Source of the DNA: a phage
Direction: 5' to 3' (one strand)
DNA length: 64,000 nucleotides
NCBI GenBank assembly: GCA_036252695.1
Contig: GCA_036252695.1_4122.1
Part shown: positions 2,491-21,105 of the stretch, in pieces
Position numbering within the stretch: position 1 is the stretch's first letter
Layout of the letters: every line of letters begins with the position of its first letter
Notes under the pieces: model-generated
Database searches by the model: none
The model's input: only the letters and a program-made list of their open reading frames with translations
Told to the model about the DNA's origin: nothing
Program-made: the position numbers and the translations under genes

Positions 2491-3188
2491 ATTTTATTTT
2501 GTTTTTTCCAATAGTTCCCCTACCGCGTGGGGATAGTTTCCCCGCAGTATCTGGAGTTAGATTTTTCTGAATCTGGAATCATTATCTTATAAACTGGGGG
2601 CAATGTCAACGGCCTGGACGGATATTTTTAAAAATTTTTTTCAGTACTGAATTTTGGGCGTAACTATGCACCCGGTGGGCTTGAGTCTTTCTCGACTTGA
2701 TGGAACTATTATACAGTACTGAAAAAAATAAAGCAATACCCTGGAAGCAAAAAAGTTTTAATTAATTTGCTTGCTATCCTGGGCCGGACTATGGTACTAT
2801 ATTTCAGTACTGAGAAAGTGCGTTTACCTGCTAGGGTGCGGGAGTGTATCCTTTTTTTATATCTTGAATTTTGGGCGTAATTCCGCACCCTCTGGGGTTT
2901 CCGCTTTCTCGCGTCTATGTAGTAATTATACGCTTTTTCAGGATCAAGTCAATACCTAAAAACAAAATAATTGAAAATAATTTAACGCGTTTAAACGGCC
3001 CGTAAAGCCCTGGAATGATTGGAATGGTGCAAATGTATAGCTTAGGTGTATTAATGCGTTAGAATGCGTCTGAGGCCGTTTTATGGGGTGTAGTAGTGAT
3101 TTGGTTGATTCAGTACTGAATGATAGTACTGAATAATAGTTCCCCTATATAGAAAGAAAACTATTTTAAAAGTACATGTAGAAAGTAC

Positions 3189-3247
3189 TTGCAAACTATG
3201 TTTAAAGGCGTATAATGTTTTACATCGAGAGCGGGAACACTTCCCGC
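3189..3247 (+). promoter_or_regulatory. sigma70 promoter + 5' stem-loop cassette
   Basis: -35 TTGCAA 3189-3194, -10 TATAAT 3211-3216, hairpin gcgggaacacttcccgc 3231-3247. Confidence 0.75.
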
Positions 3248-3271
3248 TACACTTTAAAAGAGATTAATACG

Positions 3272-3634
3272 ATGGCGACCCAAATCAATAAAATTATTGC
3301 TAACCTGGTCAACTTCCGTGAAGAGATGAAAGGTCTTCCGGCTGAAACGGTAAAAATTCACATTTCAGCTTATCGGGAACTTATTACAATGTTGCCGCTT
3401 AAGCGTGAACAATACGCCGCTACCGTGATGCTTGATGCGATGATCCATAAGATGATCGCCAGTGATTTAACGATGGTTTATCAGTATATGGGCGAAAATT
3501 TCGCGGTGTATAGTAAACCAGTACCAGGAATGGAAAGTACAGAAGTATTACACGGTTTAAATTTAAAACAAGATGCATGGGATAATATGCCTCGTTTCCT
3601 GGTATGGGCTGACAGTGGCAAAATTTACGAATAA
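3272..3634 (+). CDS. hypothetical early protein
   Basis: ATG at 3272 downstream of promoter/hairpin; ORF track frame of 3215..3634. Confidence 0.65.
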   Translation: MATQINKIIANLVNFREEMKGLPAETVKIHISAYRELITMLPLKREQYAATVMLDAMIHKMIASDLTMVYQYMGENFAVYSKPVPGMESTEVLHGLNLKQDAWDNMPRFLVWADSGKIYE

Positions 3635-3648
3635 GTTTAATAAAGTAC

Positions 3649-3707
3649 TTGCAAACTAAGTTTAAAAGCGTATAATGTTTTACATCAGGTGGGGAATAGT
3701 TCCCCAC
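3649..3707 (+). promoter_or_regulatory. sigma70 promoter + 5' stem-loop cassette
   Basis: -35 TTGCAA 3649-3654, -10 TATAAT 3671-3676, hairpin gtggggaatagttccccac 3689-3707. Confidence 0.75.
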
Positions 3708-3727
3708 TATATAAGAGGATTAAAAAA

Positions 3728-3967
3728 ATGGCTAAATCAAAAATGTTCTTAGGTCACAAAAACAAAACTCATTGGAATGTAAGCCTTTGGATTAATAACG
3801 ATGAGGCATTGTATCGGCTGGCCCAGGACTTTATTGCCGCCAATACTAATCGTAATGATGCGGCCCGTCATATGATGCTATTTTTAGAACAGACTGGGCA
3901 AGATAAAACTCCAGACGGCTTTAAGTATAGCACTACTGCGATCCGTGCGGCGATGGTTGGAATGTAA
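3728..3967 (+). CDS. hypothetical early protein (paralog of 5770..6009)
   Basis: RBS aagagga; shares GHKNKTHWNVSLWINN and TPDGFKYSTTAIRAAMVGM with 5770 gene. Confidence 0.7.
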   Translation: MAKSKMFLGHKNKTHWNVSLWINNDEALYRLAQDFIAANTNRNDAARHMMLFLEQTGQDKTPDGFKYSTTAIRAAMVGM

Positions 3968-4055
3968 TAGAATAGAATTTATTTAAAGTACTATTGCACG
4001 GTGATAGTACTTTATAATAGTGTTTTATTCATACACCAACGATAAGGGCAACAGC

Positions 4056-4322
4056 ATGAATATTAAGTATTTTGCGACGCGTGAACAAGCTCGGATCGCC
4101 GCACGCCAGGACGGGGCAACGTTTAAAGATATGGGCGTACAATCGGAACGTGGTAAACGTTGGGCCATTGTAAAGCGTAGTACCGCCAGATCATTACAGT
4201 ACTGGTTAGCGGCCTTAAAAAGTCCCGATAGTGTATCGCGACGAGTGGTAGAAATAAAGCTCGACCGAAAGGGCAACCGCGTGACCGTGTACCGTACTAA
4301 AAAGATTGCAGTACTTGAATAA
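4056..4322 (+). CDS. hypothetical early protein (paralog of 17098..17493)
   Basis: FATREQARI...RKGNRVTVY shared with 17098 gene; upstream promoter has a 13-nt spacer (weak). Confidence 0.6.
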   Translation: MNIKYFATREQARIAARQDGATFKDMGVQSERGKRWAIVKRSTARSLQYWLAALKSPDSVSRRVVEIKLDRKGNRVTVYRTKKIAVLE

Positions 4323-4329
4323 AAAGTAC

Positions 4330-4388
4330 TTGCAAACTATGTTTAATGGCGTATAATGTTTTACATCGAGAGCGGGAACACTTCCCGC
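4330..4388 (+). promoter_or_regulatory. sigma70 promoter + 5' stem-loop cassette
   Basis: -35 TTGCAA 4330-4335, -10 TATAAT 4352-4357, hairpin gcgggaacacttcccgc. Confidence 0.75.
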
Positions 4389-4409
4389 CTATAACCTGGA
4401 GTAATAAAA

Positions 4410-4640
4410 ATGACTAATATGTATATGACTGAAGTTAAAACTGTAAAAGATACTACCACGAATAAAACTACTTACTTACAGCGGATCTGCGGTGTATGGC
4501 AACGTATCAGCAAATCAAAGTACTATAAATTAACATCATATGCAAACCGTTCGGATTCATTCAGTACTGAAATAAAAGGTAATAAAGTACACCAATACGG
4601 CACTTATTATTATTATAGCCTGGACGCGATTGCAGTATAA
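4410..4640 (+). CDS. hypothetical early protein
   Basis: RBS ctggagt; ORF track. Confidence 0.6.
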   Translation: MTNMYMTEVKTVKDTTTNKTTYLQRICGVWQRISKSKYYKLTSYANRSDSFSTEIKGNKVHQYGTYYYYSLDAIAV

Positions 4641-4887
4641 GCAGTTTACAAATCTTTACAATTGCCGGTATTGACTTATTTTGTCAGTACTGGCATAATG
4701 TATTCATTGGCAGATAAGCCGTAGCCCATAGGGTGCGGGAGTGTATCTATAGAAAAAGTAGTTTAGTATAGTTACAATTGTGCACCCGGTGGGTTAGCTG
4801 TTGTCATGGGGTATATTATGCCAGTACTTGATAATGCTGTCAATACTTTTTTAATATTCAGTACTGAAAACTATTTTTAAAAAGTAC

Positions 4888-4915
4888 TTGCAAACTATGT
4901 TTAAAGGCGTATAAT
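4888..4915 (+). promoter_or_regulatory. sigma70 promoter (upstream of conserved 80-nt leader)
   Basis: -35 TTGCAA 4888-4893, -10 TATAAT 4910-4915. Confidence 0.65.
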
Positions 4916-4921
4916 GTTTTA

Positions 4922-5000
4922 CATCAGGACGGGGAACGAAATAAGTAACTTCCCGTTAAGTAGCCCAGGAGTAAGGCACACGAAAAACTCCCCTGATAAA
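4922..5000 (+). ncRNA. candidate small RNA / structured leader, copy 1
   Basis: ~80 nt between two tandem promoters; near-identical copy at 15897-15976; no ORF. Confidence 0.25.
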
Positions 5001-5005
5001 ATAGT

Positions 5006-5035
5006 TTGACAAATGTTTTTTTAAAAGCGTATAAT
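5006..5035 (+). promoter_or_regulatory. sigma70 promoter
   Basis: -35 TTGACA 5006-5011, -10 TATAAT 5030-5035. Confidence 0.65.
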
Positions 5036-5067
5036 ACTTACATCAACTACTGAATGAGGGTTACAAA

Positions 5068-5679
5068 ATGAAAACTATCACTACTACTACTTATGTTATG
5101 GATTTTTCTGAATTGAACGCAGAACAAAAAACGTCAGCTATCGAACTGGTTCGGGATCGTGAGCGTTCATGCGGTGATTATTTCTTTTCTGAGGGCGTAT
5201 ACGAATACTATAAAGAAACAATTTTGCCGGAGTATGGCATTGATGACGCTGATTTGCAATTCAGTGGTTTTTGGTCGCAAGGTGACGGTGCATCAATTAG
5301 TACTGACCACGTTGACGCAGTGAAGTTTTTACGTAAGGTAAGAGCATTAACTAAGTATCGCTCAATCCGGCACCTGCTGAATGAAGATGATTTGGCGATG
5401 AGTGTAAAGCGTTATCACTACCACTACTCGCATGAGAATACTGTAAGCGGGTACATTGAATCGGCTTACACTGATTTAACCGCAAAACAAGAAACGTTAG
5501 TTAATGAGCTTGAGGAACTACTCACTGACACTATTCGTGAATTGTCCCGCAAGTTGTACCGTGATTTAGAGAATGCATATGAGGATCAATTCACTACTGA
5601 AAACATTACGGCACTGATTGAGGGTAACGAATATCAATTCAATGTTATTGATGGCGTAGTAGAATCAATCGAATATTAA
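5068..5679 (+). CDS. hypothetical acidic protein (203 aa)
   Basis: RBS gaggg; ORF track. Confidence 0.7.
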   Translation: MKTITTTTYVMDFSELNAEQKTSAIELVRDRERSCGDYFFSEGVYEYYKETILPEYGIDDADLQFSGFWSQGDGASISTDHVDAVKFLRKVRALTKYRSIRHLLNEDDLAMSVKRYHYHYSHENTVSGYIESAYTDLTAKQETLVNELEELLTDTIRELSRKLYRDLENAYEDQFTTENITALIEGNEYQFNVIDGVVESIEY

Positions 5680-5691
5680 TTTAAAAAGTAC

Positions 5692-5751
5692 TTGCAAACT
5701 AAGTTTAAAAGCGTATAATACTTTATATCGAGGCGGGGAGTGGTTCCCCGC
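5692..5751 (+). promoter_or_regulatory. sigma70 promoter + 5' stem-loop cassette
   Basis: -35 TTGCAA 5692-5697, -10 TATAAT 5714-5719, hairpin gcggggagtggttccccgc 5733-5751. Confidence 0.75.
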
Positions 5752-5769
5752 TCAAACGAGGATTTAAAA

Positions 5770-6009
5770 ATGGCTAGTACTAAAACTTACAACGGACACA
5801 AAAACAAAACTCATTGGAATGTAAGCCTTTGGATTAATAACGGTGAGTCATTGTATCGGCTTGCTCAAAGTTGCATCGCACAAAGTAGAACTAAAGATAT
5901 TGCAGCGGAATGTATGTACCGCAGATTAAAAGCCAACGGTACTACTACAACGCCGGACGGCTTTAAGTATAGCACTACTGCGATCCGTGCTGCAATGGTT
6001 GGAATGTAA
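5770..6009 (+). CDS. hypothetical early protein (paralog of 3728..3967)
   Basis: RBS gagga; identical C-terminal 19 aa to 3728 gene. Confidence 0.7.
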   Translation: MASTKTYNGHKNKTHWNVSLWINNGESLYRLAQSCIAQSRTKDIAAECMYRRLKANGTTTTPDGFKYSTTAIRAAMVGM

Positions 6010-6067
6010 TATTCAGTACTGTAACAATGGCGGGGAATGGTTCCCGCCTTTATTGAGGGTTTATCTA

Positions 6068-6328
6068 ATGAGTAAAGTAATTAACTATACAGTACTAAGC
6101 AAGTCATTATCTATCAGTCATTGCACCGATGGTTATTGGCTATTTGATGAAACGCGTGGCATGAATTTAGCTATGCGTGCAAAAACTGCTGAGGCGGCGT
6201 ATATTCAAGCACTGGAATACTACCAGGAACGTTTAAAGGAAGTAGAAGAAGATTATAAAAGCCTCAAAGCGAAAGTAGATCATTTCGTCGGTCAATTCAT
6301 CGAGGAAGACGACGACAAACAATATTGA
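6068..6328 (+). CDS. hypothetical early protein
   Basis: RBS tgagggt before ATG 6068; hairpin ggcggggaatggttcccgcc 6029-6048 upstream. Confidence 0.55.
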   Translation: MSKVINYTVLSKSLSISHCTDGYWLFDETRGMNLAMRAKTAEAAYIQALEYYQERLKEVEEDYKSLKAKVDHFVGQFIEEDDDKQY

Positions 6329-6336
6329 AAAAGTAC

Positions 6337-6396
6337 TTGCAATTAGTTTCAAGTACTGTATAATGGTTTACATCAAAGGGGGAAATGGTTCTCCCT
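6337..6396 (+). promoter_or_regulatory. sigma70 promoter + 5' stem-loop cassette
   Basis: -35 TTGCAA 6337-6342, -10 TATAAT 6359-6364, hairpin agggggaaatggttctccct. Confidence 0.75.
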
Positions 6397-6414
6397 GGTA
6401 ATGAGGAAAATAAA

Positions 6415-6636
6415 ATGGCTAATATCACTACTCTTTCCCAACTGGAAGCACTGGTTAAATCTATGCGGGAACATGCCGACAAAATCGGCGTACAAGATCC
6501 AGCCGTTTGCTTCTGCGACGAATTGAATGATGATACACTGGTAATAGCAGAAGTCCAGGACGTTTCTAACTATTCCTCGCGTTACACTGGCGGCGTAGCA
6601 AATAAAGGTGACTTCTGTTTATACCTTACAAAATAA
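6415..6636 (+). CDS. hypothetical early protein
   Basis: RBS gagga; ORF track frame. Confidence 0.65.
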   Translation: MANITTLSQLEALVKSMREHADKIGVQDPAVCFCDELNDDTLVIAEVQDVSNYSSRYTGGVANKGDFCLYLTK

Positions 6637-6640
6637 CAAC

Positions 6641-6671
6641 GCGGGGAGATAATAACTCCCCGTTACTTTTT
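6641..6671 (+). terminator. intrinsic terminator
   Basis: cggggag...ctccccg stem followed by ttacttttt. Confidence 0.55.
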
Positions 6672-6804
6672 CAGTACTGAATCATTTAATAGACGGATCT
6701 ATGCACCCGGTGGGTTAGTGACTGTTTCGTCTTGATGTAGTAATTATGCCAGTACTGGATGCACTTGTCAACAATTATTTTTCAAATACTTTTTATTAAA
6801 ATAC

Positions 6805-6859
6805 TTGCAATTAGTTTTTAAACGCGTATAATGTTTTGCATAGGGGGAGCGGTTCCCCT
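6805..6859 (+). promoter_or_regulatory. sigma70 promoter + 5' stem-loop cassette
   Basis: -35 TTGCAA 6805-6810, -10 TATAAT 6827-6832, hairpin gggggagcggttcccc. Confidence 0.75.
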
Positions 6860-6879
6860 GGTAACTAAGGAATAATAAA

Positions 6880-7137
6880 ATGCTTGAACAAATCAAATCA
6901 ACGTCTGCGAATGTAACGGGAACGGTAGCACACTTTACTAGTGATGAATCGCGGGGCGTTCCCTATTGTGCTGTACATGTAAACACTGAGGGTAACTACT
7001 GGTTTACGGTTTACGGATCATATTCATTTGGACGGCCAGGGCATCAAAAAATTCTGGATAAAGTACAACCAACGGGTAAAAATATCACTGCCGAAATGTT
7101 TTATAAAAATCATAAAGTACTTGATAATAGTTTTTAG
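6880..7137 (+). CDS. hypothetical early protein
   Basis: RBS aaggaa; ORF track. Confidence 0.65.
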   Translation: MLEQIKSTSANVTGTVAHFTSDESRGVPYCAVHVNTEGNYWFTVYGSYSFGRPGHQKILDKVQPTGKNITAEMFYKNHKVLDNSF

Positions 7138-7180
7138 TACTGTATAATATTTTACATCGCAAGGGGGAGCGGTTCCCCCT
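7121..7180 (+). promoter_or_regulatory. sigma70 promoter + 5' stem-loop cassette
   Basis: -35 TTGATA 7121-7126, -10 TATAAT 7143-7148, hairpin agggggagcggttccccct. Confidence 0.7.
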
Positions 7181-7199
7181 GGTAACTAAGGATAATCAA

Positions 7200-7499
7200 A
7201 TGAAAATTGCAATCATCGCCCTGGCTTTATCTGTTTCCTCTTTCGCTGTTAATGCGTCATTAGATGTAAGTAGTGAAAAATTCATTCAGTGCACTGTTGC
7301 AATGACCGATGAAAGAACTGGCGAGATTGTATTAAAGGATTTAGAGATCCAGCCAGAAGCATTTAAAAACGGGCCGTTCCATGAAGAAGACGAAAAAGGT
7401 AGCACGACAATTTATTACGATGCAAGTACTAAACGCGGTTCGGTCACTGTTATGGATACTGAGAAAGTAACTCATACTGGCGTTATTAATTGCCGTTGA
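7200..7499 (+). CDS. putative secreted/periplasmic protein with N-terminal signal peptide
   Basis: N-term MKIAIIALALSVSSFAVNA is signal-peptide-like (hydrophobic core, AxA-type cleavage site). Confidence 0.65.
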   Translation: MKIAIIALALSVSSFAVNASLDVSSEKFIQCTVAMTDERTGEIVLKDLEIQPEAFKNGPFHEEDEKGSTTIYYDASTKRGSVTVMDTEKVTHTGVINCR

Positions 7500-7520
7500 T
7501 AGATACTACGGGGTAACATC

Positions 7521-8488: not shown

Positions 8489-8516
8489 AGCCCACTGCAT
8501 AAGTGGGCTTTTTTGT
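8489..8516 (+). terminator. intrinsic terminator
   Basis: gcccact...agtgggc hairpin + tttttt. Confidence 0.8.
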
Positions 8517-11717: not shown

Positions 11718-11910
11718 AAAAAGTGGTTGACTCCGGTCAGCCATTTTGCTATTATATATTCATTGAGAGATAGCTCACTAGCCCACAGGGTGCATAAGTG
11801 TATCTATTATATAAGTATTGAGTACTGAAAACTATTTTAAAAAAGTACTTGCAAACTATCTCAATAAGCGTATAATGTTTTACATCGAAAGGGGAAACGG
11901 TTTCCCCTGG
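11717..11910 (+). repeat. dispersed ~190-bp intergenic module (hairpin/promoter + AGCCCAC box + promoter cassette)
   Basis: Near-identical to 19012-19205; contains TTGACT 11727-11732 / TATTAT 11750-11755 inside a hairpin, and agcccacagggtgc. Confidence 0.85.
11849..11908 (+). promoter_or_regulatory. sigma70 promoter + 5' stem-loop cassette
   Basis: -35 TTGCAA 11849-11854, -10 TATAAT 11871-11876, hairpin aggggaaacggtttcccct. Confidence 0.75.
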
Positions 11911-13091: not shown

Positions 13092-13125
13092 AGCCCACTG
13101 GTTAACGCTGGTGGGCTTTAATCAT
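13092..13125 (+). terminator. possible intrinsic terminator
   Basis: agcccactgg...ctggtgggct hairpin; weak T tract. Confidence 0.4.
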
Positions 13126-13392: not shown

Positions 13393-13421
13393 TTGACAAT
13401 ATCCTCCAGTACTGGCATAAT
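13393..13421 (+). promoter_or_regulatory. sigma70 promoter with ~300-nt leader
   Basis: -35 TTGACA 13393-13398, -10 CATAAT 13416-13421. Confidence 0.6.
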
Positions 13422-13481
13422 ACTTACATCAAGACGAGAACGTCACTAACCCATAGGGTGCACAAATGTAACTATATAATA

Positions 13482-15724: not shown

Positions 15725-15900
15725 AAAAGGGATTGACTCCGGTCAATCCCTTTGCTATTATATACGCATAGAAACAAATTAGCCCACCGGGTGCATAAAT
15801 GTATCTATTGTTTGCTGGTGGCTAGTACTATCAAGTACTGAAAACTATTTTTAAAAAAGTACTTGCATTGTACTTAGAATCAAGTATAATGTTTTACATC
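15725..15900 (+). repeat. dispersed ~175-bp intergenic module (copy similar to 20941-21105)
   Basis: Perfect hairpin gggattgactccggtcaatccc with embedded TTGACT/TATTAT; agcccaccgggtgc box. Confidence 0.85.
15864..15890 (+). promoter_or_regulatory. sigma70 promoter (upstream of conserved leader copy 2)
   Basis: -35 TTGCAT 15864-15869, -10 TATAAT 15885-15890. Confidence 0.65.
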
Positions 15901-15976: not shown

Positions 15977-15980
15977 TAGT

Positions 15981-16008: not shown

Positions 16009-16040
16009 ACTTACATCAACCACTGATAAGGAAACATAAA

Positions 16041-16316
16041 ATGCGGATTCTACTGACAGCTAACGAAATCGAACAAGTACTGACTACTAACCTGGAAGAC
16101 TGGAAACGTGAAGCAGATATCCAGTCGGTTCAATGGCTTAACGATAAGTTAACGCCGGATGACTTAAGCAAGATTGTAGATCCTCAATTCTACGAAGATA
16201 TCCACGACACCGCGTTAAGCGTCGAGGATGTACTAGATAAGCACTTTATTGATACAGATTTGCAGGTTTACGGTCGTAAAAACTTTATCACTATTCACGA
16301 CATTTACAATACTTAA
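16041..16316 (+). CDS. hypothetical acidic protein
   Basis: RBS aaggaaa; ORF track. Confidence 0.65.
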   Translation: MRILLTANEIEQVLTTNLEDWKREADIQSVQWLNDKLTPDDLSKIVDPQFYEDIHDTALSVEDVLDKHFIDTDLQVYGRKNFITIHDIYNT

Positions 16317-16319
16317 GTA

Positions 16320-16382
16320 TTGACAAAGTATCTTAGTACTGTATAATAGTTTACATCAAGTGAGGGGAAACGGTTCCCCTCC
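16320..16382 (+). promoter_or_regulatory. sigma70 promoter + 5' stem-loop cassette
   Basis: -35 TTGACA 16320-16325, -10 TATAAT 16342-16347, hairpin gaggggaaacggttcccctc; duplicated at 16591. Confidence 0.75.
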
Positions 16383-16404
16383 TAACAAAGAGAGAGAAAT
16401 AAAA

Positions 16405-16587
16405 ATGGCTAAGTGCACTATCTGCAAGAAAGAAATAGTATTAGTTCCAAGTGCCCGTGAACGTGCCGCTCGGTTTGGTGGCAAAGCGTCAGACTATACA
16501 AAAATGTTTACTGCCCATACAGCTTGCCAGGTAGCAAAACGTTCACAAGAAAGCGTAGAATTAATGCGTAAACTTTCCAAAAAATAA
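16405..16587 (+). CDS. small Cys-containing protein (possible zinc ribbon)
   Basis: MAKCTICKKE...HTACQ; RBS agagagaga. Confidence 0.55.
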   Translation: MAKCTICKKEIVLVPSARERAARFGGKASDYTKMFTAHTACQVAKRSQESVELMRKLSKK

Positions 16588-16590
16588 GTA

Positions 16591-16652
16591 TTGACAAAGT
16601 ATCTTAGTACTGTATAATAGTTTACATCAAGTGAGGGGAATGGTTCCCCTCC
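16591..16652 (+). promoter_or_regulatory. sigma70 promoter + 5' stem-loop cassette
   Basis: -35 TTGACA 16591-16596, -10 TATAAT 16613-16618, hairpin gaggggaatggttcccctc. Confidence 0.75.
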
Positions 16653-16674
16653 TAACAAAAAGAGAGAAATTAAA

Positions 16675-16998
16675 ATGACTATGATCCTTACCCAGAAAGT
16701 AGAAATGAAAATTGTAACTTCCTTTGACATTAAAGTTAATCGGTGGACTGATAGCCACGGCAATACTTACCACTCATGCTACGTGTCTGCATTGATTGGT
16801 GACCGCTGGGAAGACCTGGGACATGAAACCTTTACTTACGGTTACGGTACACAAGGCGAATACACGGGCTTGGAGATCATTAAAGAAACCGTTATAGGTT
16901 TCAACCCGAAAGAAAAAGTTATTCACCGCATCGAGGAAGAGATCAACAAAGAAATTACAGTTCGTTACTACGATGTAAAACGTAAGAAAGACATGTAA
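16675..16998 (+). CDS. hypothetical early protein (paralog of 9591..9914)
   Basis: NRWTDSHGNTYHSC...ETFTYGYG...VKRKKDM. Confidence 0.7.
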   Translation: MTMILTQKVEMKIVTSFDIKVNRWTDSHGNTYHSCYVSALIGDRWEDLGHETFTYGYGTQGEYTGLEIIKETVIGFNPKEKVIHRIEEEINKEITVRYYDVKRKKDM

Positions 16999-17020
16999 TA
17001 GAATCCATTTAAAGTACTAT

Positions 17021-17049
17021 TTGACATTGCCCAGATAGTACTTTATAAT
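17021..17049 (+). promoter_or_regulatory. sigma70 promoter
   Basis: -35 TTGACA 17021-17026, 17-nt spacer, -10 TATAAT 17044-17049. Confidence 0.7.
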
Positions 17050-17097
17050 AGACTCTAACTTGTAGTACTAATTAACTTAACTAATAGGATGTACACC

Positions 17098-17493
17098 ATG
17101 ATTACTAAATTCTTCGCTACCCGTGAACAAGCTCGCATCGTTGCCCGTGAAGAAGGTGAAACATTTAAAGACATGGGCAAAGATGCACCGAAAGGACAAC
17201 GCTGGGCGGTACAGTTCAAAGAGATCTCTGATATTGTGAATTCACCTGAACCAGTACTTACTGAAGCAGAACTGAAGAAAGCTCAAGAACTGGCTGAAGT
17301 ACTGAACGCTCAAGATGACTTCTTGAAAGGTTCTGATATTCAAGTACAAGTGAATAGTAATGCATGGACTCACGCGGATCACCTGGCAAACCTTAAGCGT
17401 CCAAGTGAACTGATTCGTAACCAGAAAGAGATTCGTCATGACCGTAAAGGAAACCGTGTAACAGTATACAGTAAACGCCGCCAGGTTATCTAA
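17098..17493 (+). CDS. hypothetical early protein (paralog of 4056..4322)
   Basis: FATREQARIVAREEGETFKDMG...RKGNRVTVY. Confidence 0.65.
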   Translation: MITKFFATREQARIVAREEGETFKDMGKDAPKGQRWAVQFKEISDIVNSPEPVLTEAELKKAQELAEVLNAQDDFLKGSDIQVQVNSNAWTHADHLANLKRPSELIRNQKEIRHDRKGNRVTVYSKRRQVI

Positions 17494-17516
17494 TAACTTT
17501 GCAGTACTAACAACAC

Positions 17517-17542
17517 GGCGGGAACTATTCCCGCCTTTTTTA
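17517..17542 (+). terminator. intrinsic terminator
   Basis: ggcgggaactattcccgcc + ttttttat. Confidence 0.7.
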
Positions 17543-17555
17543 TAGGATAAACAAA

Positions 17556-17810
17556 ATGATTAAGGTTCAACTATCAAACGATAATGTATTACGGGTACAC
17601 TATAAAGCCCCACAGAGAATCATCACAAAGGCCGTACAGCTTGCTAATGAGTTTATTAATGGTAGTCTATTGCCTAGGAAGTTAAGCAACGGGAAACTAC
17701 GTGTTATCGATGTAGACACTAACAATAGAATAGTGATCGAGAGTACTGGAAAAATTAATCTATATGAACACCAACAATACAATAAAAAAATAAAACTAAT
17801 ATCACGTTGA
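17556..17810 (+). CDS. hypothetical protein
   Basis: RBS aggataa; ORF track. Confidence 0.55.
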   Translation: MIKVQLSNDNVLRVHYKAPQRIITKAVQLANEFINGSLLPRKLSNGKLRVIDVDTNNRIVIESTGKINLYEHQQYNKKIKLISR

Positions 17811-17835
17811 CAGTACTCAAATGTTTTAGTATTAT
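17807..17835 (+). promoter_or_regulatory. sigma70 promoter
   Basis: -35 TTGACA 17807-17812, -10 TATTAT 17830-17835; module duplicated at 18088. Confidence 0.65.
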
Positions 17836-17868
17836 GTATCTATACCAACACAGAGAGAGAGAAACAAA

Positions 17869-18087
17869 ATGAAATTATCTAAAATCGAAAAGAAAACTAT
17901 TGATGAAGCAGTGAAGCACGGTTATACCTTTCGTAATGATTCACACTTCACTAGTTTTCAACAGGGAAACCGTACCATCAAAAAACTCATTGATAAAGGT
18001 TTACTCACTAAGGTTGATAACGGGAACGGTGTAGAATATCAACCGACAGAAGACGCATTATCACTAAAGAAATATTCTATTATCTAA
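17869..18087 (+). CDS. hypothetical protein
   Basis: RBS agagagaga; ORF track. Confidence 0.6.
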   Translation: MKLSKIEKKTIDEAVKHGYTFRNDSHFTSFQQGNRTIKKLIDKGLLTKVDNGNGVEYQPTEDALSLKKYSII

Positions 18088-18116
18088 TTGACAGTACTCA
18101 AATGTTTTAGTACTAT
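18088..18116 (+). promoter_or_regulatory. sigma70 promoter
   Basis: -35 TTGACA 18088-18093, -10 TACTAT 18111-18116. Confidence 0.6.
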
Positions 18117-18144
18117 GTACGCATACCAACACGGGGAAAACAAA

Positions 18145-18387
18145 ATGATTACTTTAGAAAAACGTATCAAAGAGACTACAACGCTGGTGGAACTGTTAAC
18201 CGTTCTTAAATGCCGGGTAACTCCATTCAGTACACCGGACTTTATCAACATGGTGGACGTTAACGGTCGATATCGTATTGCGGTCGAACAAGGTACGGCA
18301 AAAGTATTCAGTACTAAAAATACGCGTGAAGTATTCCACGCAGTTCAAGTAAAAAAAGTAGTTGCCATTGATAGTAAAGTACTGTAA
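18145..18387 (+). CDS. hypothetical protein
   Basis: ATG 18145 after acggggaaaacaaa RBS region. Confidence 0.55.
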   Translation: MITLEKRIKETTTLVELLTVLKCRVTPFSTPDFINMVDVNGRYRIAVEQGTAKVFSTKNTREVFHAVQVKKVVAIDSKVL

Positions 18388-18418
18388 TATAGTTTCATTA
18401 ACTCAAGGAGTCAACACA

Positions 18419-19003
18419 ATGCGTAACTATACTAAATTCATCCGTTCACTTCATGCAATGGAAACCAACAAAGAGATCCTTTCAGCTTGTCGGTTAGCTG
18501 GACTGGAGATCGTCGGTGCGGGTTCTTCCCGTATTGTATTCGCTTTAAATGATCGGTTAGTGATTAAGGTCGCGAATTGTGATGCGGGTGTAGAACAAAA
18601 TGAAACTGAATGTAAGGTATGGAATTTTTTAGATTATGACCGTCCGCACCTTAAACAGTACTTTGCTAAAGTGCATATGCATTTATGCGATCCTGATAAT
18701 CTGTTTATTGTTATGGATCGTTTGAGTACTGCAAGCAAAGGCAGTGTAAAGCATGTAAACGCGTGCAATGAGTTAAAGTACAATATTAAACGTAATACGG
18801 TAGAACGCCATCACCATTTCGCTGATGCTCTCAATCACGTTGATGATACATTATCCACACTAACGATAAGAGATATCAGAAAACAGAATATCGGCCAGGA
18901 TCGCAACGGCTTGATTAAAGTACTTGATTACGGTTTAACCCGCAATATCTGGAATCAGTACTATAAAAAACGTGATGTTAACGCGATAACTATAACACGA
19001 TAA
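18419..19003 (+). CDS. putative minimal Ser/Thr protein-kinase-like protein
   Basis: Gly-rich loop GAGSSRIVF, VIKV lysine, catalytic-loop-like IRDIRKQNI, DFG-like LDYG; RBS aaggag. Confidence 0.45.
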   Translation: MRNYTKFIRSLHAMETNKEILSACRLAGLEIVGAGSSRIVFALNDRLVIKVANCDAGVEQNETECKVWNFLDYDRPHLKQYFAKVHMHLCDPDNLFIVMDRLSTASKGSVKHVNACNELKYNIKRNTVERHHHFADALNHVDDTLSTLTIRDIRKQNIGQDRNGLIKVLDYGLTRNIWNQYYKKRDVNAITITR

Positions 19004-19011
19004 AAAAGATT

Positions 19012-19205
19012 AAAAAAGGGATTGACTCCAGTCAGTCCCTTTGCTATTATATATTCATTGAGAGATAACTCACTGACCCATAGGGTGCGGAAGTGTATCT
19101 ATTATATAAGTATTCAGTACTGAAAACTATTTTATAAAAAGTACTTGCAAACTATCTCAATGAGCGTATAATGTTTTATATCGAGAGGGGGAAATGGTTC
19201 TCCCT
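19012..19205 (+). repeat. dispersed ~190-bp intergenic module (near-identical to 11717-11910)
   Basis: Same hairpin/promoter, acccatagggtgcgg box and promoter cassette. Confidence 0.85.
19145..19205 (+). promoter_or_regulatory. sigma70 promoter + 5' stem-loop cassette
   Basis: -35 TTGCAA 19145-19150, -10 TATAAT 19167-19172, hairpin agggggaaatggttctccct. Confidence 0.75.
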
Positions 19206-19227
19206 GGTACTAAAAGGAATCAAGACG

Positions 19228-19449
19228 ATGACTACTATGACATGCGTTCACGCTTCAAATCTTCTGAATGATGCAGCATTTAAAGCAGGTGAAGAATATC
19301 AATGCTATCGGGATGAAAATAAAAAAGTTTTCGTCGTTGATGCTAACGGTTTCCATATTGAATTACAATCCGGCTTCACTGGTGTTGATGGTAAATCAGT
19401 ATGGGGCGTACAGGATGATAACGGTACATATCATTTTAAACGTAATTAA
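19228..19449 (+). CDS. hypothetical early protein
   Basis: RBS aaaagga; ATG 19228. Confidence 0.6.
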   Translation: MTTMTCVHASNLLNDAAFKAGEEYQCYRDENKKVFVVDANGFHIELQSGFTGVDGKSVWGVQDDNGTYHFKRN

Positions 19450-19452
19450 GTA

Positions 19453-19511
19453 TTGACAAAGTATATCAGTACTGTATAATAGTTTACATCAAGGGGAGAA
19501 TAGCTCTCCCC
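19453..19511 (+). promoter_or_regulatory. sigma70 promoter + 5' stem-loop cassette
   Basis: -35 TTGACA 19453-19458, -10 TATAAT 19475-19480, hairpin ggggagaatagctctcccc. Confidence 0.75.
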
Positions 19512-19533
19512 ACCAATAAAAGGAAACAAAATT

Positions 19534-19806
19534 ATGTCCAGCTACTCCGCTACTATGATTATTAAAGATATGAACGGTAATCCTACTTCTGCTGGTGGAT
19601 CATTTGGTAACATTAATTTAGATGGGCGGTTATCAATTGAATCAGCCATCAATGCAGCGAAAGAAGTTTTTAAGAATGAATGTACTGTAAGCAAACTGGA
19701 TTATATGGGCTTCGCTATCGAGAAAACTAATCGTTTTGTGGACTACAAAAAACCACTGATGATTGATACTAACCTGAAAGCAAACGAAGTGGAATACTTA
19801 TTATGA
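19534..19806 (+). CDS. hypothetical early protein
   Basis: RBS aaaggaaa; ORF track. Confidence 0.65.
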   Translation: MSSYSATMIIKDMNGNPTSAGGSFGNINLDGRLSIESAINAAKEVFKNECTVSKLDYMGFAIEKTNRFVDYKKPLMIDTNLKANEVEYLL

Positions 19807-19994
19807 CAGTAGAAGAAGTTAAAAAAGTACTGGCAGTACTACGCTATCATAATCATTGTAAGGTGAAGAATGATCCTGATTATCTTGATTCATCGCTGGA
19901 AGAGGATACACTACAAGCAATAAGCCATATGCAAAAAATGCTTAAGCGTATGACCGAAAAGAACAGGCCGGACTATATCGGAAATAAAATTTAA
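19803..19994 (+). CDS. hypothetical protein
   Basis: ATGA start/stop overlap with upstream gene. Confidence 0.5.
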   Translation: MTVEEVKKVLAVLRYHNHCKVKNDPDYLDSSLEEDTLQAISHMQKMLKRMTEKNRPDYIGNKI

Positions 19995-20001
19995 AAAGTA
20001 C

Positions 20002-20058
20002 TTGCATTGTAAGTAAAACAAAGTATAATGTTTTACATAGGGGGAGATATCCTCCCCC
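20002..20058 (+). promoter_or_regulatory. sigma70 promoter + 5' stem-loop cassette
   Basis: -35 TTGCAT 20002-20007, -10 TATAAT 20024-20029, hairpin gggggagatatcctccccc. Confidence 0.75.
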
Positions 20059-20077
20059 ACTAATAAGGAGTACTAAA

Positions 20078-20302
20078 ATGGCTAACTTTGATGAACTGAT
20101 GCGGGAAGTAGCTACCCTGGCAGAAGAGAAGAAATCATTTGATTCTATCTATAACACCGCTTACAGTGATTCAGTACTGGCATGTACTCAGGATCAAAAA
20201 GATGAACTGATCGCCACCTATCATGAAGCATGGAAGTATTACCGCCAATGGGAGAAAGAAGAAAGCGAGTCTACCATCAACGGCATCAATAATCTAATCT
20301 AA
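20078..20302 (+). CDS. hypothetical acidic protein
   Basis: RBS aaggag; ORF track. Confidence 0.65.
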   Translation: MANFDELMREVATLAEEKKSFDSIYNTAYSDSVLACTQDQKDELIATYHEAWKYYRQWEKEESESTINGINNLI

Positions 20303-20320
20303 AGTTTTATTTCAGTACTA

Positions 20321-20349
20321 TTGACAATGCGTGATAGTACTGATGTAAT
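20321..20349 (+). promoter_or_regulatory. sigma70 promoter
   Basis: -35 TTGACA 20321-20326, -10 TGTAAT 20344-20349. Confidence 0.55.
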
Positions 20350-20377
20350 AACTTTACTAACTACAAGGGGAAACATA

Positions 20378-20635
20378 ATGGAACAGTTCACACAATATCG
20401 GGTAAATCCTCAAGCTATGGCCTACGTAGAAGACCATAAAACATTACCAGTACAGACACCAATCAAAGGCCGTATCTATCGTGCTATGCAGTGGAATAAC
20501 GCCTATAATGGCTATAAAGCGGTAGCGGCTGCAATGTACTTAGGGGATGGCGAATGGTTTGATCCAAATAATCCTGGTGCACTAGATAGTACTGAACAAA
20601 TGACATGGGCCGACTATATCGAAGATATTTCATAA
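20378..20635 (+). CDS. hypothetical protein
   Basis: RBS aagggga; ATG 20378. Confidence 0.6.
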   Translation: MEQFTQYRVNPQAMAYVEDHKTLPVQTPIKGRIYRAMQWNNAYNGYKAVAAAMYLGDGEWFDPNNPGALDSTEQMTWADYIEDIS

Positions 20636-20642
20636 AAACTAT

Positions 20643-20703
20643 TTGACAGTACTACAAGATAATGTATAATGTTTTACATAGAGCGGGGGAATAGTTCTCC
20701 CGC
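20643..20703 (+). promoter_or_regulatory. sigma70 promoter + 5' stem-loop cassette
   Basis: -35 TTGACA 20643-20648, -10 TATAAT 20665-20670, hairpin gcgggggaatagttctcccgc. Confidence 0.75.
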
Positions 20704-20723
20704 ACCTTTAGGAGTAAAACATT

Positions 20724-20924
20724 ATGTCAATCGCTAACGAATTGGTTGCAGTACTGAATGAAGCAAAAGCCAACTGCATCGATGTACAGATCAAAGAGCT
20801 TGGCAATGGCTTGATCGGCTGTACTTGTACAGTGCAAACGGCTACCGATTATCGGGAAGTGGAATCACTCGAATCACTGGTACGGTATATTAAAATCCTG
20901 GTAGAAGATTGGAGAATCATCTAA
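20724..20924 (+). CDS. hypothetical protein
   Basis: RBS taggagt; ORF track. Confidence 0.6.
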   Translation: MSIANELVAVLNEAKANCIDVQIKELGNGLIGCTCTVQTATDYREVESLESLVRYIKILVEDWRII

Positions 20925-20940
20925 CAAAAAAGAATAAAAA

Positions 20941-21105
20941 AAAGGGATTGACTCCGGTCAGTCCCTTTGCTATTATATACGCATAGACAAAAACTAGCCC
21001 ACAGGGTGCAGAGAAGTATCTATAAGATAGTTAATAACGGTGAGTAACTATCTGCTGGTGGATGTAATGCCAGTACTCAAAACTATTTCAAAAAAAGTAT
21101 TGACA
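20941..21105 (+). repeat. dispersed intergenic module (copy similar to 15725-15900)
   Basis: aaagggattgactccggtcagtccctttgctattatatacgcatag + agcccacagggtgc. Confidence 0.85.

What the first reader, a model, noticed from the sequence alone, without database searches (positions are those of the whole stretch)
2650..21020. Recurrent AGCCCAC(n)GGGTGC box in both orientations, sometimes as inverted pairs
The box occurs forward at 4745, 11772, 13455, 15783, 19075 and 20997, and in reverse orientation (GCACCCGGTGGG) at about 2680, 4800 and 6710. Forward and reverse copies flank ~40 bp at 4745-4815 and at 2830-2900. The stems of three intrinsic terminators (7758, 8489, 13092) also start with AGCCCAC. 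Conservation beyond what a hairpin needs suggests a protein-binding or recombination site.
Basis: seen in the sequence. Interest (0 to 1): 0.55.

Follow-up and report, generated by a model that had tools for sequence, protein, structure and literature searches.

The report
Promoter-coupled pause-hairpin RNA module, jumbo phage
The repeated "box" is the hairpin core of a roughly 50-nucleotide RNA element sitting just after ten strong early promoters in the terminal repeat of a giant E. coli phage; it most likely makes the host RNA polymerase pause there, and it does not appear to have been described before.

Summary
CCCA-NN-GGGTGC occurs 10 times in the window against 0.00 expected, and all copies lie inside the ~21-kb direct terminal repeat (DTR) of an Asteriusvirus (RaK2-like) jumbo coliphage.

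It is not a free-standing DNA box. Every copy lies 21-28 nt downstream of a near-consensus sigma70 promoter, in the promoter's orientation. A covariance model finds 127 copies (105 distinct) in relatives infecting Escherichia, Klebsiella, Erwinia, Cronobacter and Pectobacterium, plus 9 in a Yersinia phage. It finds none in the non-DTR 41 kb of the window.

The element has three parts:
- **P1:** a 5' hairpin with abundant compensatory changes.
- **H2 (the box):** the hairpin R-CCC/loop/GGG-U. Its loop varies in sequence and length (3-4 nt), and rare copies carry a compensatory U:A pair.
- **A gapless 3' block:** U-G-C-n5-U-G-Y-R-y-C-y, which fits the elemental pause consensus GGnnnnnntgYRccc, with the hairpin's 3' base at -11.

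Best reading: a hairpin-stabilised, promoter-proximal pause module on immediate-early transcripts. That it acts at the RNA level is well supported. The pause, and its purpose, are inferred. The main rival is a trans-acting small-RNA family.

There is no Rfam match, no resemblance to HK022 put, and no mention in the papers searched and read. The DNA-binding or recombination reading is not supported.

The parts
2652..2736 (-). Module 1. Promoter TTGCTT-N17-TATAAT (2736-2708), P1 hairpin AGUC-GAGAAA-GACU, box/H2 at 2668-2679, pause-like block to about 2652.
   Evidence: covariance-model score 49.8 bits, E 2e-10
2869..2952 (-). Module 2. Promoter TTGACT-N16-TATAAT (2952-2925), P1 CGC-GAGAAA-GCG, box 2885-2896 (CCCAGAGGGTGC).
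   Evidence: 49.9 bits
2832..2851 (+). Degenerate remnant convergent with module 2. It keeps GGGUGC-GGGA-GUGUAUCC followed by T7 (terminator-like) and lacks the CCCA half.
   Evidence: terminator-like 2833-2852; 14.2 bits, E 0.13, model positions 27-46 only
4671..4752 (+). Module 3. Promoter TTGACT-N17-CATAAT (4671-4699), P1 UGGC-AGAUAA-GCCG, box 4725-4736. Convergent with module 4.
   Evidence: 41.6 bits
4766..4843 (-). Module 4. Promoter TTGACA-N17-CATAAT (4843-4815), short A-rich 5' segment, box 4782-4793.
   Evidence: 25.8 bits, E 2e-4
6687..6771 (-). Module 5, antisense to the genes. Promoter TTGACA-N17-CATAAT (6771-6743), P1 GAC-GAAACA-GUC, box 6703-6714. It runs into the bidirectional terminator at 6642-6662, giving a unit of roughly 100 nt.
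   Evidence: (58.8 bits)
11727..11809 (+). Module 6. The -35 TTGACT is embedded in a terminator-like hairpin, -10 is TATTAT, P1 UGAG-AGAUAG-CUCA, box 11782-11793. A second promoter (TTGCAA-N16-TATAAT) and the gene at 11928 follow.
   Evidence: (55.4 bits)
13393..13477 (+). Module 7. Promoter TTGACA-N17-CATAAT, P1 GACG-AGAA-CGUC, box 13450-13461. Upstream of the DksA/TraR zinc-finger gene (13718-13975).
   Evidence: (48.8 bits)
15733..15810 (+). Module 8. The -35 lies within hairpin GGGATTGACTCCGGTCAATCCC, -10 is TATTAT, short P1 (UAG-AAACAAA-UUA), box 15783-15794.
   Evidence: 34.3 bits
19022..19104 (+). Module 9. The -35 lies within a hairpin, -10 is TATTAT, P1 UGAG-AGAUAA-CUCA, box 19077-19088.
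   Evidence: 59.3 bits
20948..21025 (+). Module 10. The -35 lies within a hairpin, -10 is TATTAT, short P1 (UAG-ACAAAAA-CUA), box 20998-21009.
   Evidence: 40.1 bits
7758..7774 (+). Intrinsic terminator AGCCCAC-CTG-GTGGGCT + T6. It shares only the 5' half of the box. This type is found only in Asteriusvirus, so it is probably a derivative or a coincidence rather than a member of the family.
8489..8509 (+). Intrinsic terminator AGCCCAC-TGCATAA-GTGGGCT + T6. Its 5' flank, CACTAGCCCAC, is identical to the linker plus half-box of module 6.
13092..13117 (+). Terminator-like hairpin AGCCCAC...GTGGGCT followed only by TTTAAT. It contains a Chi site (13107-13114).

Best explanation
The box is the invariant hairpin (H2: R-CCC / 3-4 nt loop / GGG-U) of a structured element of about 50 nt, encoded immediately downstream of ten near-consensus sigma70 promoters in the phage's direct terminal repeat.

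Host RNA polymerase would start at the conserved CAT about 7 nt after the -10 and transcribe, in order:
1. A small hairpin with an A-rich loop (P1).
2. A CUAA-type linker.
3. The H2 hairpin.
4. Exactly ten further nucleotides, reaching a U-G-Y|R-y-C-y sequence.

The stretch G-C-n5-U-G-Y-R-y-C-y fits the elemental pause consensus. It places the 3' base of H2 at -11 from the predicted pause 3' end (about +35 to +42 of the transcript). I recall this as the geometry of a hairpin-stabilised (his-type, class I) pause.

I therefore read the module as a programmed promoter-proximal pause on immediate-early transcripts.

- **Shown:** the repeat, its coupling to promoters, the P1 and H2 base pairing, the gapless spacing, its restriction to the terminal repeat, and its restriction to RaK2-like jumbo phages.
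- **Inferred:** the transcription start sites, the pause itself, and its purpose.

For the purpose, I favour a checkpoint or loading platform for an elongation regulator, or gating of very strong early promoters. The short terminated transcripts of the antisense-oriented copies would then be a by-product or a second output.
For: **Non-random and restricted in location.**
- 10 copies against 0.00 expected.
- The covariance model finds only these in 64 kb, all within about 1.6-22.7 kb, which is the terminal repeat as mapped from phage vB_Ec-M-J.

**Coupled to promoters.**
- 105 of the 118 distinct box matches (one mismatch allowed) that were scored have a TTGACA-like -35, a 16-18 nt spacer and a TATAAT-like -10, lying 20-29 nt upstream in the same orientation.
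- Of the 13 below the cut-off, about 8 are obvious chance hits in unrelated GC-rich contigs or coding sequence. About 5 are real copies with a slightly weaker -35.

**P1 is a real helix.** All 4 modelled pairs change on both sides: 156 doubly changed cells against 59 +/- 5 in shuffles (0 of 500 reach the observed value). 89.5% of P1 cells are paired; for both modelled helices together the figure is 89.7%, against 32-60% when partners are slid. G.U pairs are present. RNAalifold finds P1 independently.

**H2 is a hairpin, not a linear motif.**
- RNAalifold predicts it.
- The loop is free in sequence (ACA, AUA, ACC, AGA, UUG...) and in length (UAGA, UAUA, UCAA, UUUA).
- The closing pair is A-U or G.U in 121 of 127 copies.
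- Three copies carry a compensatory CCU...AGG change, and they have promoters and P1.

**Spacing constraint.** Box position 7 to 16 nt past the box is gapless in all 127 copies, whereas the P1 loop, the linker and the H2 loop all carry indels.

**Fit to the pause consensus GGnnnnnntgYRccc (PMC9974457).**

| Position | Residue | Frequency |
|---|---|---|
| -10 | G | 100% |
| -3 | U | 88% |
| -2 | G | 51% |
| -1 | Y | 100% |
| +1 | R | 100% |
| +3 | C | 88% |
| +2 | Y | 90% |
| +4 | Y | 95% |

The score is at least 5 of 9 in 96% of elements, against 5.3% of window positions. The predicted site is the best or joint-best scoring position in 80 of 105 elements.
Against: - No transcription data exist. 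Start sites and the pause are predictions.
- The pause match was noticed after the fact and is imperfect: -11 is U rather than G, and +2 and +4 are mostly U rather than C.
- The same block can be read as the 3' strand of an alternative hairpin, P3 (GGGUGC with the 7th-12th nt after the box). It is 89.5% paired against 34-63% when slid, with some compensatory changes at its innermost pair.
- 39 of 105 distinct copies point against the genes and about 15 pairs are convergent. That is awkward for any purely cis-acting role in gene expression.
- Antisense solitary copies are followed by good bidirectional terminators, which looks like small-RNA genes.
- A 4-bp hairpin is short for a pause hairpin.
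- P1 and its conserved A-rich loop have no assigned role in the pause model.
- The -11 hairpin spacing of his-type pauses is recalled from memory, not checked in a paper here.
Confidence: 0.5

Rival explanations
1. A multicopy family of trans-acting immediate-early small RNAs. Each promoter-plus-element unit would exist to make large amounts of the same 5' RNA domain (P1 + H2) within minutes of DNA entry. That domain would bind or titrate a conserved host or phage factor as a decoy, sponge or aptamer. What lies downstream would be irrelevant.
For: - Each copy has its own very strong promoter.
- Orientation is independent of the genes: 66 sense, 39 antisense.
- Antisense solitary copies end about 60-90 nt later at GC-rich hairpins with U-tracts on the small-RNA side, giving units of roughly 100 nt.
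- All six sense copies in the window are followed by a further promoter before the gene, by eye; the automatic scan confirmed four. The unit is therefore not needed as the gene's promoter.
- There are about 10 copies per repeat and two repeats per genome.
Against: - Only 2 of 50 sense solitary copies have a downstream terminator by the same scan, so most copies would be 5' ends of long RNAs.
- The H2 loop, the usual recognition surface, is free in sequence and length.
- The gapless, pause-like 3' block is unexplained by this model.
- No complementary target or host homologue was found, although short targets could not be searched.
Confidence: 0.25
2. A two-state RNA switch. GGG pairs either with the upstream CCC (H2) or with the downstream pyrimidines (P3: GGGUGC with G-Y-R-Y-C-Y). 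A factor binding the CUAA-CCCA strand would select the state and so control termination or RNA fate.
For: - P3 is 89.5% paired, against 34-63% when partners are slid. Two of its pairs are compatible in 105 of 105 rows using only transitions.
- The innermost pair shows G:C, U:A and U.G replacements when the last box base changes.
- H2 (-3.7 kcal/mol) and P3 (-2.5 kcal/mol on average) are similar in energy, and P3 is the more stable in 49 of 105 copies.
- In a few copies, and in the remnant at 2832, P3 is followed by a U-run and looks like a terminator.
Against: - The putative P3 loop never varies in length in 127 copies, unlike the loops of P1 and H2.
- The conserved U at the 6th nt after the box is unexplained by P3.
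- Most copies have no U-tract after P3.
- All variation is one-sided, because the box strand is fixed, so this is not true covariation.
Confidence: 0.1
3. A self-sufficient, put-like antiterminator RNA. The two-hairpin 5' RNA would stay bound to the polymerase that made it and make that polymerase resistant to the many terminators in the terminal repeat. Box-promoter transcripts would read through while transcripts from the second promoters stop.
For: - It sits in the same place as HK022 putL: a two-stem-loop RNA at the extreme 5' end of an early sigma70 transcript (PMC9378689).
- The repeat contains many terminators between operons.
- putL also includes a promoter-proximal pause thought to help it fold.
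Against: - The model scores nothing in the HK022 early region that holds putL and putR (best 6.4 bits, E 2.2).
- The element is about 50 nt, against about 70 nt for put.
- More than a third of copies are antisense or convergent, so read-through would produce only antisense RNA and head-on collisions.
- Well-formed terminators sit right after the antisense copies.
Confidence: 0.08
4. One reading: a double-stranded DNA site for a DNA-binding protein or recombinase. A weaker form is a PeSL-like mobile regulatory cassette, whose conservation reflects homologous recombination and gene conversion between repeats rather than a function of the box itself.
For: - Ten of the 12 box positions are at least 92% conserved, most of them fully, among the regex-collected copies.
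- Copies occur in both orientations and as inverted pairs.
- T4-type phages carry repeated terminator/promoter cassettes (PeSLs) implicated in modular shuffling (PMC4122927). Four modules here have the -35 inside a terminator-like hairpin.
- The repeat is mosaic between relatives.
Against: - The box has no dyad symmetry.
- It is always co-oriented with a promoter, at a distance from the -10 that varies with P1 length.
- Loop indels between the two half-boxes are tolerated.
- Compensatory and G.U pairs make sense only in RNA of one strand.
- The flanks diverge freely while the core stays fixed across six host genera, which argues for selection rather than homogenisation.
- Only about 2 of 18 homology breakpoints against G17 and J fall within 150 nt of a module.
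Confidence: 0.07

Closest known systems
Hairpin-stabilised (class I, his-leader type) pause built on the consensus elemental pause GGnnnnnntgYRccc
   Same: A nascent RNA hairpin whose 3' base lies about 11 nt from the pause 3' end, followed by G at -10, U-G-Y at -3 to -1, a purine at +1 and pyrimidines at +2 to +4. The spacing is fixed, as such a signal requires.
   Different: - It sits about 35-42 nt from a promoter, on non-coding 5' ends of phage early transcripts rather than in an attenuator leader with a leader peptide.
- It is repeated about 10 times per terminal repeat.
- The hairpin is only 4 bp with a 3-4 nt loop.
- Position -11 is U.
- An extra conserved upstream hairpin, P1, is present.
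- Pausing has not been demonstrated.
HK022 putL antiterminator RNA
   Same: A cis-encoded element of two stem-loops at the very 5' end of an early transcript made by host sigma70 polymerase. putL is also associated with a promoter-proximal pause (PMC9378689).
   Different: - No sequence or structure similarity.
- About 50 nt rather than about 70 nt, with no evidence of a triple helix.
- Many copies, a third of them antisense to the genes.
- Antitermination is untested.
Promoter-proximal pause platforms for elongation regulators (lambda PR' with Q and its short 6S transcript; the ops element with RfaH)
   Same: A short, highly conserved element in the initially transcribed region that halts polymerase close to a strong promoter. 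In lambda, a short terminated RNA is made unless a factor is loaded (named from general knowledge).
   Different: - No -10-like sigma-dependent pause hexamer was seen.
- No ops sequence in the window, and no boxA near the modules.
- No Q-, RfaH- or N-like protein was identified in the repeat (searches covered only 20 ORFs).
- The halt here would depend on an RNA hairpin.
PeSL composite terminator/promoter cassettes of T4-type phages
   Same: Repeated intergenic cassettes with a stem-loop just upstream of, or overlapping, a near-consensus sigma70 early promoter, in regions full of small ORFs of unknown function (PMC4122927). Modules 6 and 8-10 have exactly this upstream part.
   Different: - PeSLs run straight into a Shine-Dalgarno sequence and start codon.
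- Here the promoter is followed by a conserved structured RNA element and usually a second promoter.
- The conserved core is transcribed and base-paired.
- Breakpoints are not enriched at the modules.

Membership tests
Any Rfam RNA family | Match to a curated covariance model | tested here: not met
   No match at gathering score over the whole window. At E up to 5 over 2500-7000 there were only three noise hits, none of which is a credible match to the element.
HK022 put RNA | Sequence/structure similarity to putL or putR | tested here: not met
   Model R1 run with filters off on HK022 24000-37000, which holds both put sites: best 6.4 bits, E 2.2.
HK022 put RNA | Two stem-loops encoded just downstream of an early sigma70 promoter | tested here: met
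   P1 and H2 start 3-7 nt after the predicted start site of near-consensus promoters. putL is as described in PMC9378689.
HK022 put RNA | Suppresses termination in cis without protein factors, through the beta' zinc-binding domain | not testable with these tools
   Needs read-through assays and rpoC mutants.
Hairpin-stabilised consensus pause | Match to GGnnnnnntgYRccc at a fixed distance from the hairpin | tested here: met
   Score at least 5 of 9 in 96% of 105 elements against 5.3% of background positions. G at -10, Y at -1 and R at +1 are invariant; -11 is U. The block is gapless in 127 copies.
Hairpin-stabilised consensus pause | RNA hairpin supported as a structure, with its 3' base at about -11 | tested here: met
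   H2 is predicted by RNAalifold, has variable loop length and sequence, and shows a compensatory U:A in 3 copies. The -11 geometry rule is recalled knowledge.
Hairpin-stabilised consensus pause | Polymerase actually dwells there; NusA enhances the pause; it depends on the hairpin | not testable with these tools
   Needs in vitro transcription or NET-seq.
lambda-type nut site / RfaH ops | boxA (CGCUCUUA / GCUCUUUA) next to a boxB hairpin; or the 12-nt ops GGCGGTAGCGTG | tested here: not met
   No GGCGGTAG in the window. The single full boxA-like matches lie outside 1-23 kb, and the four GCTCTT cores inside it lie away from the modules.
PeSL cassette | Stem-loop immediately upstream of a sigma70-like early promoter | tested here: met
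   GGGATTGACTCCGGTCAGTCCC-TTTGCTATTAT in modules 6 and 8-10. The other six modules lack the hairpin.
PeSL cassette | Promoter leads directly to a Shine-Dalgarno sequence and start codon; cassettes mark indel or shuffling junctions | tested here: not met
   The promoter is followed by the structured element and then a second promoter. Only about 2 of 18 homology breakpoints against G17 and J lie near modules.
Intrinsic terminator | GC-rich hairpin followed at once by a U-tract | tested here: not met
   H2 is followed by GC and a purine-rich stretch. Only the separate AGCCCAC...GTGGGCT hairpins (7758, 8489; 13092 has only TTTAAT) and the remnant at 2832 have this form.
dsDNA operator / recombination site | Dyad or direct-repeat symmetry, rigid spacing, function independent of transcription direction | tested here: not met
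   No symmetry. There are 1-nt insertions between the half-boxes. Co-orientation with a promoter is strict.

The most novel reading that the evidence does not exclude
The module is the cis site of a previously unknown elongation-control system of RaK2-like jumbo phages. The P1 + H2 RNA, presented on a polymerase paused about 40 nt from the promoter, would recruit a phage or host factor, or itself ride on the polymerase. This would reprogramme early transcription, for example by terminator read-through, antisense shut-off of immediate-early genes from the reverse-oriented copies, or polymerase parking. Alternatively, the same RNA is an abundant decoy for a conserved enterobacterial factor.
Probability: 0.25. 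Interest if true: 0.8.

Novelty: new variant of a known kind. Interest (0 to 1): 0.6.

Why it matters
RaK2-like jumbo phages (345-385 kb) are being isolated widely, in several cases with phage therapy or biocontrol in mind. Most of their genes have no known function (83% in phAPEC6), and their early transcription programme is unstudied. None of the papers I searched and read mentions this element.

This module gives that programme a concrete, testable handle. It is a conserved RNA and pause signature, repeated about 10 times per terminal repeat, on the first DNA expected to be transcribed by the host polymerase.

If the pause is real, it would be an unusual case of a phage using hairpin-stabilised consensus pauses as a repeated promoter-proximal device. 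It would point to an unknown regulator that reads it. If instead the RNA acts in trans, it is a new abundant phage small-RNA family.

In either case the covariance model can be used to annotate terminal-repeat and early regions in this phage clade, and to add a family to RNA databases.

Tried and rejected
- **Wrong first pattern.** AGCCCAC-NN-GGGTGC found nothing.
- **tRNA or tmRNA.** None found.
- **Rfam.** No family matched.
- **Loose pattern on viral contigs.** A tighter pattern was used instead.
- **Host mimicry or prophage origin.** blastn of a module against 5,426 E. coli genomes found nothing at E up to 10. Matches of 16 nt or less cannot be seen this way.
- **Chi-site relationship.** Only the ACC-loop variants resemble Chi, at 6 of 8 positions by eye, so I rejected it. 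True Chi sites are separately enriched.
- **Closing helix or pseudoknot.** Pairing of the 5' end or the P1 loop (AGAUA / AUAGA) with the UAUCUAU tail is present in some copies but inconsistent.
- **Terminator link.** The AGCCCAC...GTGGGCT hairpins occur only in Asteriusvirus copies, so they are not part of the family's core.
- **Other candidates judged by eye and dropped, because features were missing or present in only some copies:**
  - CsrA-type GGA loops and Shine-Dalgarno-like or RegB-like GGAG in the loop after GGGUGC.
  - A Tus/Ter resemblance of the TGTAACTA variants.
  - Known E. coli transcription-factor sites (NtrC, sigma54, marbox).
  - Hammerhead or pistol ribozymes and small riboswitches.
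- **Pfam scan for a partner.** Of 20 terminal-repeat ORFs, hits above Pfam's cut-off were a DksA/TraR zinc finger, a GNAT acetyltransferase and DUF7247. A kinase-like hit and a Tox-PL-2 hit were weak. No RNA-binding or antiterminator domain was found.
- **Literature.** Searches on Asteriusvirus, phAPEC6, RaK2 and transcriptomes found no description of the element.

Full report
**What the window is.** Megablast of window 1-22000 finds 220 phage records. The best are E. coli jumbo phages of the genus Asteriusvirus (fEgEco12 94%, CRJP21, E9.1, G17, 121Q, PBECO4 relatives).

In phage vB_Ec-M-J a 21,525-bp direct terminal repeat (DTR) is annotated. Its position 1 aligns to window 1576, and its end to about window 22,750. 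A 20,993-bp DTR was confirmed by restriction digests for fEgEco12 (PMC13070987). Similar repeats of 19.7-20 kb are annotated in Klebsiella phages Muenster and fENko-Kae01.

The finding therefore lies in the DTR. This is a region of small plus-strand ORFs of unknown function. The few recognisable products are a DksA/TraR zinc finger, a GNAT acetyltransferase and a weak kinase-like protein. These are typical of early, host-takeover regions.

**Checking the observation.** The core CCCA-NN-GGGTGC occurs 10 times without mismatch, against 0.00 expected in shuffles. There are six copies on the plus strand and four on the minus strand, all between 2668 and 21009.

AGCCCAC occurs 12 times against 1.9 expected. 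Half of these are the arms of three terminator-like hairpins.

A covariance model built later (R1) finds exactly the ten copies, plus a degenerate remnant at 2832-2851. It finds nothing credible in the remaining 41 kb.

**What surrounds each copy.** Printing the flanks showed that every copy lies 21-28 nt downstream of a near-consensus sigma70 promoter reading in the same direction. The promoters are TTGACA/T-N17-CATAAT with an extended TG, TATAAT or TATTAT, and a conserved CAT sits where transcription should start.

The box is therefore at about +16 to +23 of a predicted transcript. The start sites are inferred from the promoter consensus, not measured.

**Range.**
- The same arrangement holds in relatives. 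Of the 118 distinct box matches scored (one mismatch allowed), 105 passed the promoter criterion. Of the 13 that did not, about 8 were chance hits in unrelated contigs or coding sequence, and about 5 were real copies with a slightly weaker -35.
- A pattern scan of 2.9 million viral contigs returned the motif almost only from jumbo contigs of 345-378 kb, and one of 109 kb, with the lengths of RaK2, 121Q, GAP32 and CBB.
- blastn of one module finds it in 52 phage records: Escherichia 33, Klebsiella 10, Salmonella 8, Erwinia 1. In most listed records nothing is annotated over it.
- R1 finds 127 copies (105 distinct) in the fetched loci, and 9 more in the first 12.2 kb of Yersinia phage fHe-Yen9-04.
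- No Rfam family matches, and no E. coli genome carries anything similar.

**Structure: the P1 hairpin.** Upstream of the box is a small hairpin, P1, with a 2-5 bp stem and an A-rich loop such as GAGAAA, GCGAAA, AGAUAA or AGAACAA. Its stem sequence differs from copy to copy (GGC/GCC, AGCA/UGCU, CCAC/GUGG, GCCG/CGGC, GUCA/UGAC, CCUG/CAGG, CAAA/UUUG and others).

On the model-based alignment all four P1 pairs change on both sides. There are 156 doubly changed cells against 59 +/- 5 in shuffles (0 of 500 shuffles reach this), 89.5% of P1 cells are paired (89.7% for both modelled helices together, against 32-60% when partners are slid), and G.U pairs are present. This alignment was fitted to the model. 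However, RNAalifold, which predicts its own structure, also returns P1.

**Structure: the box is a hairpin, H2.** RNAalifold also returns a hairpin formed by the box itself: R-CCC, a loop, GGG-U. Three observations show that the two halves of the box pair with each other rather than forming a linear site:
- The loop is free in sequence (ACA, AUA, ACC, AGA, ACG, AUU, UUG).
- The loop can be 3 or 4 nt long (UAGA, UAUA, UCAA, UUUA).
- Three copies, from two different contigs, carry CCU...AGG. This is a compensatory C:G to U:A change. They have normal promoters and P1.

The base before CCC is A or G, pairing with the U after GGG in 121 of 127 copies.

**The block after the box.** From the first G of GGGUGC to 16 nt beyond the box, the alignment is gapless in all 127 copies. 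By contrast, the P1 loop, the linker and the H2 loop all carry indels.

Conservation in this block is U-G-C-n5-U-G-Y-R-y-C-y, with Y and R invariant as classes. I considered two readings.

*Reading 1: an alternative hairpin, P3.* GGGUGC would pair with G-Y-R-Y-C-Y. This is 89.5% paired against 34-63% when slid. Two pairs are compatible in every row using only transitions, and there are a few compensatory changes at the innermost pair. P3 is mutually exclusive with H2 and similar in energy.

*Reading 2: the elemental pause consensus.* This is given as GGnnnnnntgYRccc, where YR are the pause 3' end and the incoming nucleotide (PMC9974457). Placing Y at the 8th nt after the box gives the frequencies tabulated under the best explanation: G at -10, Y at -1 and R at +1 are invariant, and U at -3 and C at +3 are each 88%. 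Only -11 (U) disagrees.

The score is at least 5 of 9 in 96% of elements, against 5.3% of all window positions. This site is the best or joint-best in 80 of 105 elements.

The pause reading also explains three things P3 does not: the conserved U at -3, the absolute spacing, and the placement of the 3' base of H2 at -11. I recall this last as the geometry of his-type hairpin-stabilised pauses (established knowledge, not checked here).

I therefore prefer the pause reading. It was found post hoc, and P3 may still form after escape.

**Context of the copies.**
- Of 105 distinct copies, 66 point with the genes and 39 against them. About 15 pairs are convergent, with discrete box-to-box offsets of 68, 79 or 86 nt.
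- By eye, all six sense copies in the window are followed by a second promoter, often TTGCAA-N16-TATAAT, before the gene. The automatic scan confirmed four of the six.
- Antisense solitary copies sit just beyond the terminator of the preceding gene and run back into it. These terminators have U-tracts on both sides, so the antisense units would give RNAs of roughly 100 nt.
- A GTAC-core palindrome lies 20-29 nt after the box in 46 of 105 copies.

This orientation independence is the main argument against a purely cis role in gene expression. It is also the main argument for the rival, a multicopy trans-acting small-RNA family.

**Comparison with known systems.**
- HK022 putL is the nearest analogue in position and general form: two stem-loops at the 5' end of an early sigma70 transcript, with an associated promoter-proximal pause (PMC9378689). 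But R1 scores nothing in the HK022 early region.
- There is no ops sequence in the window and no boxA next to the modules.
- PeSL terminator/promoter cassettes of T4-type phages (PMC4122927) resemble the upstream part of four modules, where the -35 is embedded in a terminator-like hairpin. They lack a conserved transcribed structure, however, and homology breakpoints against G17 and J coincide with modules in only about 2 of 18 cases.
- The three AGCCCAC...GTGGGCT hairpins occur only in Asteriusvirus. One shares the flank CACTAGCCCAC with module 6. They may be derivatives of the element but are not part of the conserved family.

**Verdict.** The box is real, strongly non-random and under selection.
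- It functions in the transcript and elongation complex rather than as a DNA-binding or recombination site (confidence about 0.85).
- It is specifically a hairpin-stabilised promoter-proximal pause signal (my best mechanistic reading, about 0.35-0.4).
- The biological purpose of the pause is unknown.
- The element is absent from Rfam and from the papers I could search and read.

Noticed in passing
whole window; dense at 1460-3120 and throughout 1.4-22.5 kb: The 8-bp palindrome CAGTACTG occurs 68 times against 0.85 expected. It sits in the spacer of many sigma70 promoters (CCAGTACTGGCATAAT). A GTAC-core site lies 20-29 nt after the box in 46 of 105 elements. It also occurs about every 0.5-1.5 kb outside the terminal repeat. 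It looks like the operator of an unknown DNA-binding protein.
   Followed up: partly
window 2162-21061 (11 sites) and 62162: Chi (GCTGGTGG) occurs 12 times against 0.38 expected. Eleven sites are inside the terminal repeat and nine are on the plus strand. An inverted Chi pair at 2162/2174 forms a hairpin. This may protect the genome ends from RecBCD.
   Followed up: partly
window 1232-3215: About 2 kb without ORFs spans the left boundary of the terminal repeat (vB_Ec-M-J position 1 = window 1576). It holds short tandem repeats, including a 16/40-nt GGCTAAACGGCTAGAT-like array at 2394-2485, and three leftward sigma70 promoters (2952, about 2736, 2609). It may be a terminus, packaging or origin region.
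   Followed up: partly
window 2513-2540 (+): AGTTCCCCTACCGCGTGGGGATAG resembles the ends of the E. coli type I-E CRISPR repeat (AGTTCCCC...GGGGATA; about 18 of 29 positions by eye). It could be chance, because GGGGA/TCCCC hairpins are common terminators in this phage.
   Followed up: no
L012 8050-8136, L081 1248-1334, L124 19348-19972, L125 1002-1088 and 7278-7357, and others: In relatives, convergent element pairs with offsets of 79 or 86 nt have a central palindrome, AATGATAATCATT, which is the core of the Fur box. Pairs with an offset of 68 nt instead have a CAGTACTG-type palindrome or an A/T-rich spacer at the centre.
   Followed up: no
window 11723-11755, 15729-15761, 19018-19050, 20944-20976: The -35 hexamer of four box promoters is embedded in a terminator-like hairpin (GGGATTGACTCCGGTCAGTCCC followed by TTTGCTATTAT). 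This is a composite terminator/promoter like the PeSLs of T4-type phages.
   Followed up: partly
window 3189, 3649, 4330, 4888, 5692, 6337, 6805 and others: A second promoter family, TTGCAA-N16-TATAAT, precedes many terminal-repeat genes. It is preceded by AGTACT in the copies I examined, and several copies have a GGGGAA...TTCCCC leader hairpin.
   Followed up: no
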